DNA of 64,000 nt from Felis catus (taxonomy: Eukaryota), in assembly GCF_018350175.1 (NCBI RefSeq), contig NC_058374.1:48608001-48672000 (forward strand). The letters run 5' to 3'. How positions within the stretch are numbered: position 1 is the first letter of the stretch; the number at the start of each line of letters is the position of its first letter. The position numbers were made by a program, and so were the translations under genes. Shown piece by piece: positions 7,480 through 61,324 of this stretch. Below the pieces are notes generated by a model that made no database searches, was not told the DNA's origin, and saw only the letters and a list, made by a program, of their open reading frames with translations.

Positions 7480-7662
7480 CTGGAGGCGCAGGGGGAGGTA
7501 GCCTTGGTGGGGGTCCCCGAGGAGGAGGGCCAGGAGGCAGACCTGGAGGTGGACCTGGGGGAGGACCAGGGGGCCGGCCTGGGGGTGGGCCTGGAGGTAA
7601 AAGTCGGGGTAAAGGCCCTCGGAGCCCTGGCATTCCAGGTGGTCTCAGGAATGGAGGAGCTC
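7480..7662 (-). CDS. WBP11: WBP11 exon 11 (proline-rich)
   Basis: cag|GA ... G|gtaaag; APPFLRPPGMPGLRGPLPRLLPPGPPPGRPP; 183 nt. Confidence 0.96.
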
Positions 7663-8332
7663 CTGTAAACAGAAAAACGGCAAATTAGCGTAAGACAAAT
7701 AACATATGAAGTAGGTAACTGTGGTATAAAGGTAACTCTGATGTGGTCTGACTTATCATTTTAACTTGAAATCAGGTAACTTCAAAAACTGACCAAAACA
7801 TATGTGGAAACTGAATTCATTCAACAAATATCTGAGCACCAGATAGGGTAGTAATTTTGTTATGGATCATTTCTGTTTATATCCCAGCACTGAAAAAAAA
7901 CATAATCACAGCTCTGCTGGGCTAGACACTGTACAAAGATGAGAAGAATTCTTAAATTTCCAAAATAAAGCTGAAAATGGAATACAGAGCAGGGTGCTTT
8001 AAGAACTCCCCTGAAACACAGTAAGATATTGACAAAGACCACTGAAAAGGGTGTAAGATAGGTAATTTGCTTTTGCACCACCAATTGGAAAAGGATAAAC
8101 TCAAGTGAAAAAACTTAACTGGCCAACTGCAGGATGAAGAACTATAAAATCATAAATGGCCAAGAAGTTCGCATTTTAAATAAACTTCTTATACTGGTAT
8201 GCCAAACTACATTAATACTGATCACTTTTATCTCTGAAGACTGACATCCAACAATTCCCAACCAAAGAAGGATACTTGATAGTATTTACTGTGCCCTAGT
8301 CTCACTAGCTATCAATTTAGAATTCGGCCAAC

Positions 8333-8414
8333 CTGTCATATTAAAAAGCAGTACTAAAGAAACCCCCCGTTTCGTATTCCAGTTTCCGCCTGCGAACGTC
8401 AGAAGTGAAGAACC
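8333..8414 (-). other. WBP11: Candidate NMD-inducing (poison) cassette exon in WBP11 intron 10
   Basis: Acceptor tcttcttttttcag|G, donor CAG|gttggc, 82 nt, in-frame TAA at 8341-8343, CpG-rich. Confidence 0.45.
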
Positions 8415-8630
8415 CTGAAAAAAGAAGACCTTTGGAGAAAAAGACGGCTGTCGTAAGTACTATGAATTGCAAATAGTGCTGTAGGAATAAATCGCACTTA
8501 TCCTTTCTCTCTTAGGGTATCAGGAGAAAAGAAAACATCAGCACTAATGATGTATATTTTTGAAATGACTTCATCATTCTAATCACAGAGAGATGTAATT
8601 ATTTTTCACAATACCGAAGTGCTAATTTAC

Positions 8631-8924
8631 CTGGAGGTGGTCCAGGAGGAAGGCCAGTAGGTGGTCCAGGTGGCCGTAAAGGTGGAGCAGGGGGTGGTCC
8701 AAGAGGAGGTGGTCCTGGCATGGGAGGTGCTTGTATCTGAGAAGGAGGAACAGACTGTGGGGGAGCTTGCTGCTGTGAAGAGGCAGCAGATGTGCCATCA
8801 GAAAGAGATTCCTCTTTATGCTGTTTCTGTGATTGCTTTTCCGCTTCAGAATCATCAGAATCATCTTCATCATCATCCTCTGAAAATTCTTCTACTTCTC
8901 GTCCCTCCTCTGGGATTTCCTGAC
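8631..8924 (-). CDS. WBP11: WBP11 exon 10 (acidic and proline-rich)
   Basis: tag|GT ... G|gtaaat; QEIPEEGREVEEFSEDDDEDD...PPGPPP; 294 nt. Confidence 0.96.
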
Positions 8925-9341
8925 CTAAAGGAAATTTTAAACCAGGTAAATGGGACTGATTCATTTTTTACAGTCTGCAAAAAAGTGATGCCTGAAGACA
9001 CATGCTCAATTCAGTGCTTTCTTACAATTATCTCAATAGTCTTCTTCAGTAAAATACTTAGATGTGGAAGAATCAAACAGTATTCCACTCATCTATGTTA
9101 CTGGAGCAGAATAAGCCCAGGCTTTTGAACAAGACCGACCTGGATCTAAATGCCAGTGTAACAACTTACTAGCTGGGCAACTCTGGACAGCTTACCTTAA
9201 TGTCTCCAAACCTAACTTTTGTAAAACAGGATTTATTATTTACTTTAGGGTTGCTGAGACACTAAATGGGAAACCATATGTAAAGGAACTAGCAGGAGGA
9301 ACTATCCAAAAGGTGATTTCACGCCTCTTTCCCAGTTTTAC

Positions 9342-11866: not shown

Positions 11867-12525
11867 CTGACAAAGTAGGAGGGAGCAGGAAACAAGTATT
11901 ACTATTGGATCCTCCACATACACACGGGGTCTCAGAGCACAGAAAACTATTATTTAACTCAGAATGACCTACCTGTTTCTGTACGTTCTGTATATGAACC
12001 TACAGATTCTGGTTCTGTATATGAACCAGAAAGGTTCTGTATATGATATGAGCTGTTCATACCGTCTAACAATATTTCCATATGGTAACAGTTTTAAAAC
12101 CTTTTTGATAACGTAAGGTATTTTTTAAAAGGTTTAAATTTGAAAACAAATTCTATATGTGGAAACTTGGATGCACACACATATACAAGATATTTGTTTA
12201 TATAGAGAACATATAAAACTATGTTCTAGTCTGAGGGCAATAAAACTGAAAAGGAAACAAGTATCTGAATCTTAAGGGATTGTTAGTAAGAAGGTGACAT
12301 CTCTTAATAGAGCCTATTTTAAAACACAATAAACATTTCTATATTTTCTTATGTATGATGCTTTTACTTAAGCAAATTCTGTGACTTATCCGTCTGTTAG
12401 TATGTACATGTAATCCTCATTCATTTTCCAAGTTCTGAGGATGGTAAACAAGATGTTAAACAGGGCCAGCTTAAAAAATGACAGTAGAAAGGTTGTTAAA
12501 AGCAAAAGAAACAGTCACTCCTTAC

Positions 12526-60648: not shown

Positions 60649-61204
60649 GGAGGTTCTAGTTCAAGATGGCCACTTTAGGAAGACTGAACTCACCTCCTTC
60701 GGGGAACACACCAAATTAAACTTATTAACAGAACAATTCCTCCTGAAGAACTGAGGGCTGACTAAACAGCTACTGAGCAACCAAAGATAGAGAGAATGGC
60801 ATTGGAACTGCAAGAGAGACAGAGACACAGTAACTAATGGAACCCCCGCCATTGAGGCTGCAAACATAGTGGGGAGGGATAGTACTGAGGTTCTGGGAAT
60901 AGATCCCTGGGTCCTTGAGCACAGGACAAAAACCATGGTTTAAAAGGGCAACTAGCATATAAAAGAGACAACGCTAGAACCCTGGCAAGTGGTGGAGGAG
61001 CTTTGGGAAACCTTTCCATGTCAGAGGGACATGGTTTACCTTTTCACCCACCTAGACCGAGACAGGGTCTGGACACCGAAACAGACAGGTGCGGTTGTCT
61101 CGGTGAGCCTGGGACTTAAGTGAGCCCCGGAGTCACAAGCCCACATCAGCGCTAGTCATGCTGGGGCACAGAAAAAGGAGCTGAGTTTTAAAAGGTCCCA
61201 GGAA

Positions 61205-61324
61205 GGGGCACCCGGGTGGCTCAGTCAGTTAAACTGTCTACTCTTGATCTCAGCTCAGGGTCATGAGTTCAAGCCCCCCATTAGACTCCATGCTGGGCGT
61301 GAACTGTACTTTAAAAAAAAAAAA
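61205..61324 (+). mobile_element. Short CanSINE (no CT tract) inside the L1 5' UTR
   Basis: ggggcacccgggtggctcagtcagttaa head and A-tail. Confidence 0.8.

What the first reader, a model, noticed from the sequence alone, without database searches (positions are those of the whole stretch)
8333..8414. Candidate poison exon in the splicing factor WBP11 (intron 10)
Seen in sequence: on the minus strand, a polypyrimidine acceptor (tcttcttttttcag|G) and a donor (CAG|gttggc) bound an 82-nt segment. Spliced after exon 10 it reads G-FFTSDVRRRKLEYETGGFFSTAF-stop (TAA 8341-8343), well over 50 nt upstream of the exon 11/12 junction. About 9 CpGs lie in 8325-8495 in a non-repeat intron, and I see no obvious SINE or L1 in this intron. 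Established: splicing regulators often autoregulate through conserved NMD cassette exons. Inference: a WBP11 dosage-feedback switch.
Basis: partly seen in the sequence, partly recalled or inferred. Interest (0 to 1): 0.72.

Follow-up and report, generated by a model that had tools for sequence, protein, structure and literature searches.

The report
Candidate WBP11 poison exon, use unproven
Intron 10 of this mammal's WBP11 splicing-factor gene holds an unusually CpG-rich 82-base stretch with a strong splice acceptor, a weak donor and an early stop codon, which likely acts as a rarely used exon that would send the message to destruction, but no RNA evidence shows that cells splice it in.

Summary
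The anatomy is confirmed: an 82-nt segment (8414-8333, minus strand) in WBP11 intron 10, bounded by AG and GT, with TAA 191 nt upstream of the last junction. The CpG patch is beyond chance: 9 in 171 nt against 1.1 expected, the only such patch in 54 kb of unmasked window. The splice-site pair alone is not: 20 other pairs this good occur in 128 kb. A random 31-nt core falls inside such a pair 1-10% of the time. The donor is weak (MaxEnt 5.52), and a second in-frame acceptor lies at 8429. Use is unshown. I have no junction reads; 0 of 157 proteins examined carry the exon's peptide; human RT-PCR across exons 7-12 gave one band without NMD block. One orthologue, seen only as translated intron, is modestly conserved at the acceptor, not ultraconserved, and differs at the predicted branch A. 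Verdict: plausible low-inclusion NMD exon (0.45); WBP11 autoregulation about 0.2. I found it neither in print nor earlier in this scan on other DNA.

The parts
8631..8924 (-). WBP11 exon 10 (294 nt), ends in phase 1; donor CAG|GTAAAT, MaxEnt 8.76
   Evidence: MaxEnt value of this 9-mer from PMC7039186 Table S5
7663..8630 (-). WBP11 intron 10 (968 nt), single-copy, no match to the window's common SINE
8453..8459 (-). Predicted branch-point motif, A at 8454 (-25 from acceptor 8429, -40 from acceptor 8414); this base is changed in the one orthologue seen
   Evidence: motif scan; codon comparison with P0001
8429..8447 (-). Upstream alternative acceptor (first exon base 8429), same frame, would give a 97-nt exon with the same stop
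   Evidence: matrix score 9.9
8415..8428 (-). Pyrimidine tract and CAG of the main candidate acceptor (matrix score 13.1; exon 11's own acceptor 11.2)
8333..8414 (-). Candidate 82-nt cassette exon, 5 CpGs within 8368-8398, in-frame TAA at 8343-8341
   Evidence: inclusion not shown
8327..8335 (-). Candidate weak donor CAG|GTTGGC, MaxEnt 5.52; the best-scoring internal donor of intron 10
8325..8495 (.). CpG-rich patch: 9 CpG, GC 43%, CpG observed/expected 1.12
7480..7662 (-). WBP11 exon 11 (183 nt); its junction with exon 12 is the last exon junction

Best explanation
The 82-nt segment is likely a low-inclusion cassette exon: in a minority of transcripts it would be spliced between WBP11 exons 10 and 11, its stop codon lies 191 nt before the last junction, and that message would be removed by nonsense-mediated decay. 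Shown: position, splice-like signals, frame, stop, CpG excess. Inferred: that the strong acceptor (8414, or 8429) and the weak donor (8333) are used. Inferred from the established 50-55-nt rule: decay. [quoted passage not shown] If translated, the product would be 460 residues and lack the exon 11-12 region.
For: The only region with 8 or more CpGs per 171 nt in 54,152 unmasked bases coincides with the segment. A random 31-nt core lies inside a comparable pair in 1.1-1.8% (same summed score) to about 10% (looser cut-offs) of positions. The acceptor is among the top 5 of 8,776 AGs, with a branch-like motif upstream. In one other mammal (P0001, translated read-through) the 84 nt from 8491 to 8408 need at least 9 changes without indels, against at least 22 in 99 nt further upstream; residues F-R-V across the acceptor are kept, compatible with a kept AG. 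NMD geometry is met. WBP11-dependent introns have weaker 5' sites (PMC7039186 section 15), and this donor scores 5.52 against 8.76 for exon 10's.
Against: No junction reads were obtained. 0 of 157 proteins (118, 39) carry the exon's peptide; direct peptide searches found nothing credible. Human amniocyte RT-PCR across exons 7-12 gave a single band in control and patient, and no cassette product is reported among 83 patient clones, without NMD block (PMC13200368). In P0001 the predicted branch A (8454) and the CpG at 8445 are changed, and the third exon-side codon differs by 2 bases before the ORF ends; the residue-identity contrast (20 of 28 vs 17 of 33) is not significant, p 0.13. Pairs as good occur about 0.16 per kb. 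WBP11 is absent from the supplements searched of six NMD/poison-exon papers; the control names SRSF3 and SNRPB were absent too and the other five had no control, so this is weak.
Confidence: 0.45

Rival explanations
1. A pseudo-exon. The CpG patch is a DNA-level or lineage-specific feature (a small unmethylated factor-binding site or young unique sequence), and the AG/GT pair round it is the chance kind that introns hold in numbers; any inclusion is splicing noise without regulation.
For: Comparable pairs occur at 0.16-1.1 per kb depending on cut-off; the donor is ordinary (386 of 6,549 GTs reach it). In the one orthologue the CpG at 8445 reads as decayed, the predicted branch A is changed and the sequence differs just inside the segment. 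There is no protein, catalogue or RT-PCR trace.
Against: Co-location of the window's only such CpG patch with a top-ranked acceptor on the sense strand has a 1-10% chance. The acceptor-side flank looks better kept than the upstream intron (not significant).
Confidence: 0.35
2. A decoy element. The strong acceptor and weak donor would engage spliceosome parts without completing inclusion and so slow removal of intron 10; the regulated product would be an intron-10-retaining (or intronically polyadenylated) RNA, with a stop 10 codons into the intron.
For: Two RNA-derived proteins of another mammal (P0122, P0123; 3 contigs each) have the coding exons through exon 10 spliced and then read 9 residues into intron-10-like sequence, so retention of this intron is on record while cassette inclusion is not.
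Against: Late introns are often still unspliced in assemblies of total RNA (general knowledge). Intron 10 is not among the 2 WBP11 rows of the intron-retention table of PMC7039186. Nothing ties retention to this segment.
Confidence: 0.2

Closest known systems
SNRPB (SmB/B') PTC-containing alternative exon, autoregulation of a core spliceosomal protein (described in PMC10087933, one introduction passage read)
   Same: Intronic PTC-bearing cassette in a general spliceosome factor whose loss-of-function causes a congenital syndrome; inclusion would rise with more of the protein.
   Different: SNRPB's exon is shown to be included, NMD-sensitive and autoregulated; here none of the three is shown.
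Ultraconserved poison exons of SR proteins, TRA2B, U2AF2 (PMC4379411 abstract; PMC8091538 passages)
   Same: Splicing-factor host gene, PTC upstream of the last junction.
   Different: Those lie in near-invariant sequence; here the upstream flank has at least 9 changes in 84 nt in one other mammal. WBP11 is not an SR protein with its own RNA motif (recalled).
Cryptic, unannotated poison exons in conserved intronic elements (PMC11632617 abstract and section 15)
   Same: Unannotated, similar length (their median is 94 nt), expected to be visible mainly on NMD block.
   Different: Those were selected by split reads and phastCons; this candidate has neither, and WBP11 was not found in the one supplementary file held.

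Membership tests
Poison (AS-NMD) cassette exon of a splicing factor | Lies in an intron of a splicing-factor gene between usable AG and GT sites | tested here: met
   acceptor strong, donor MaxEnt 5.52
Poison (AS-NMD) cassette exon of a splicing factor | Inclusion gives a stop more than 50-55 nt upstream of the last exon junction | tested here: met
   191 nt, in silico
Poison (AS-NMD) cassette exon of a splicing factor | Spliced in: junction reads or cDNAs on both sides | tested here: inconclusive
   No reads were laid; 0 of 157 proteins carry the peptide; human RT-PCR single band without NMD block
Poison (AS-NMD) cassette exon of a splicing factor | Inclusion isoform rises when NMD is blocked | not testable with these tools
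   No NMD-blocked data reachable for this locus; catalogue supplements gave no WBP11 row, mostly without a positive control
Poison (AS-NMD) cassette exon of a splicing factor | Splice sites and stop conserved across mammals | tested here: inconclusive
   One orthologue, protein-level only, reaching 3 codons across the acceptor; AG compatible, donor and stop not visible
Poison (AS-NMD) cassette exon of a splicing factor | Inclusion responds to the host protein's level (autoregulation) | not testable with these tools
   Only indirect: WBP11 aids weak 5' sites
Ultraconserved-element poison exon (SR-protein type) | Near-invariant exon and flanks among mammals | tested here: not met
   At least 9 changes in the 84 nt from 8491 to 8408 in P0001's source; exon body and downstream flank not visible
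Intronic snoRNA or other Rfam RNA | Match to an Rfam family; stable fold | tested here: not met
   0 of 11 weak matches overlap 8333-8414 and none reaches its gathering score; folding z +1.49

The most novel reading that the evidence does not exclude
WBP11, a haploinsufficient spliceosomal B-complex protein, limits its own level through an unannotated mammalian poison exon in intron 10 whose weak 5' splice site reads out WBP11 activity; blocking that exon with an antisense oligonucleotide would raise WBP11 from the intact allele.
Probability: 0.2. Interest if true: 0.6.

Novelty: new member of a known kind. Interest (0 to 1): 0.36.

Why it matters
WBP11 loss-of-function variants cause a congenital malformation syndrome by haploinsufficiency (PMC13200368, passages read). 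A real, conserved poison exon would be a place to look for deep-intronic disease variants and a handle for raising expression by exon blocking. It would also extend NMD-coupled autoregulation to another non-snRNP B-complex factor. The class itself is well known, so the gain would be a new instance, not a new principle.

Tried and rejected
RNA reads: 24 runs were listed for 8250-8560: 18 hold half of the sampled words or more and 6 are on record as RNA (shares 1.00, 1.00, 0.65, 0.50, 0.12, 0.08). No reads were laid, so these shares say nothing on splicing, retention or conservation. Orthologous DNA: exon 10 as protein found no locus in metagenome contigs (598 pattern matches, 0 confirmed), and an exact 24-base motif found 0; both are uninformative. 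Peptide of the segment: 2 candidates, none at E<=10 among longer proteins; none among 30-98 aa proteins; 2 hits among 1.84 billion representatives, both repetitive proteins whose scores sum over 4-5 stretches, rejected as chance. Coding role: no significant Pfam match in 4 of 4 frames tested (best E 0.067). Small RNA: rejected. Repeat origin: no match in the own genome beyond itself; old MIR/L2-type relics are not excluded. The first shuffle test (1% of 200 shuffles give a pair) was set aside because its cut-offs were the candidate's own scores; replace it. The splice matrices are recalled approximations, and three exon edges were mis-set by a base and gave no score. Papers: 0 hold WBP11 + poison exon or WBP11 + nonsense-mediated + cassette exon; 3, 1 and 14 listings for and 40 of 64 for one search were seen as titles and abstract starts only, none on this event. 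bioRxiv supplements, subscription journals, VastDB and GENCODE could not be searched, so an existing annotation is not excluded.

Full report
Setting. The window is mammalian and lies at G000:C16:48608001-48672000. WBP11 runs on the minus strand. tblastn with two named orthologues places exons 6-12 at 95-100% identity. A processed retrocopy on another contig (L003, about 92% identical over exons 10 and 11) joins exon 10 (8924-8631) directly to exon 11 (7662-7480), which confirms the constitutive junction. The numbering matches human c.1310/Gly437 as the start of exon 11 (PMC13200368 section 15).

Observation. The segment 8414-8333 is 82 nt, follows a pyrimidine tract ending in CAG and precedes CAG|GTTGGC. 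Read after exon 10 it adds 23 residues and stops at TAA 8343-8341, 191 nt before the last junction. There are 9 CpGs in 8325-8495, 5 of them within 31 nt inside the segment, and 4 in the rest of the 968-nt intron. The intron has no match to the window's common SINE and is single-copy in two own-genome searches, which miss old repeats. Two things were not noted before. A second acceptor at 8429 is in the same frame and sits 25 nt from a branch-like motif (A at 8454), against 40 nt for the 8414 site. And the donor is weak: this 9-mer scores MaxEnt 5.52, against 8.76 for exon 10's donor, as listed in Table S5 of PMC7039186.

Chance. With SINE-like sequence, five WBP11 exon regions and the CpG island masked, 54,152 bases remain with 6.5 CpG per kb. 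The patch is the only region with 8 or more CpGs per 171 nt (expected 1.1; single-window p 2.6e-6; observed/expected 1.12 at 43% GC). That is real. The splice pair alone is not unusual: by a recalled approximate matrix, 20 other acceptor-donor pairs in 128 kb (both strands, true exons included) reach the same summed score, and 0.8-1.1 per kb pass looser cut-offs. The acceptor is in the top 5 of 8,776 AGs, the donor one of 386 of 6,549 GTs. The informative quantity is co-location: a random unmasked 31-nt core lies inside a pair of the same summed score in 1.1-1.8% of positions and inside looser pairs in up to about 10% (17-18% at the loosest cut-off tried). This favours an exon moderately; the feature was picked after the fact.

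Is it used? Not shown. 24 runs were listed for the stretch but no reads were laid, so junctions are untested. Of 157 proteins retrieved (118, 39 more, the latter a partial listing of 10 clusters that included 2 unrelated short proteins), none carries the segment's peptide. Three direct searches with the segment's frame gave nothing credible. NMD isoforms are rarely in protein sets, so this is weak. What the records do show at this intron are two other events. P0122 and P0123 (3 contigs each, another mammal) have the coding exons through exon 10 spliced and then 9 residues that fit read-through into intron 10. P0008 and P0126 skip exon 11 in frame. In human amniocytes, RT-PCR from exon 7 to 12 gave one band in control and patient, and no cassette product is reported among 83 patient clones; NMD was not blocked (PMC13200368 sections 8 and 15). 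My inference: a predicted null acceptor allele showed as only 4% of clones there, so decay at this position may be strong enough to hide a minor exon.

Is it conserved? I could obtain no orthologous DNA. One indirect read-out exists: P0001, an ORF from another mammal that runs from intron 9 through exon 10 and 76 codons into intron 10. Against the window, the 84 nt from 8491 to 8408 need at least 9 base changes with no indel (20 of 28 residues identical); 99 nt further upstream need at least 22 (17 of 33). The contrast is not significant (p 0.13). Residues across the 8414 acceptor are kept and are compatible with a kept AG. Against the exon reading, the predicted branch A and the CpG at 8445 are changed, and the last codon seen, just inside the segment, differs by 2 bases. 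The flank is therefore modestly conserved at best and not ultraconserved. The exon body, stop and donor are not visible. Six of the representatives that read on into intron 10 from more distant exon-10 sequences or gene models (P0028, P0029, P0037, P0047, P0053, P0062) gave no alignment better than E 0.015 to this intron.

Other identities. No Rfam family matches the segment, it folds no better than shuffles (z +1.49), and four frames tested have no significant Pfam match.

Mechanism. Most likely (0.45): a minor cassette exon defined by a strong acceptor and limited by a weak donor, giving an NMD substrate. [quoted passage not shown] That loop is inference and I put it near 0.2. Rivals: a pseudo-exon over a DNA-level or lineage-specific CpG patch (0.35), or a decoy that slows removal of intron 10 (0.2).

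Literature. Full-text searches found 0 papers with WBP11 and poison exon and 0 with WBP11, nonsense-mediated and cassette exon. Searches gave listings, seen as titles and abstract starts, none on this event. WBP11 was absent from the supplements searched of PMC7347940 (8 files), PMC10123112, PMC11632617, PMC13247117, PMC8091538 (2; control gene names also absent) and PMC11188260 (12 of 13). Of PMC7347940, PMC10123112, PMC13247117 and PMC11188260 I saw only these supplement searches and, for the middle two, a listing. Earlier notes of this scan held no look-alike stretch and no WBP11 finding.

Verdict. A correctly described, somewhat better-than-chance candidate for a known kind of element in a dosage-sensitive gene (haploinsufficiency: PMC13200368). 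Its use, conservation and regulation are unproven. Interest 0.36.

Noticed in passing
L003 (G000:C18:132784879-132788175): Processed WBP11 retrocopy, about 92% identical over exons 6-12, exon 10 joined straight to exon 11, with a SINE-like insert of about 210 nt inside the exon 12 part.
   Followed up: partly
window 7480-7662 (exon 11); P0008, P0126: Two protein records skip exon 11 in frame (183 nt), removing a proline-rich block.
   Followed up: no
window 8599-8630; P0122, P0123: RNA-derived proteins of another mammal are spliced through exon 10 and then read into intron 10, pointing to retention or intronic polyadenylation of this intron.
   Followed up: partly
window about 11867-12525 (intron 7): In PMC7039186 Table S5 a human WBP11 intron, by donor motif and length probably intron 7, goes from 0.1% to 9% retention after WBP11 RNAi; this may be self-dependence or an effect of mRNA knock-down.
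   Followed up: no
window 8924-8945: Exon 10's own acceptor scores very low on the matrix (1.2) although it is a constitutive site.
   Followed up: no
window 60959-61247: Second-densest unmasked CpG patch (7 in 171 nt), next to the start of a SINE-like stretch.
   Followed up: no
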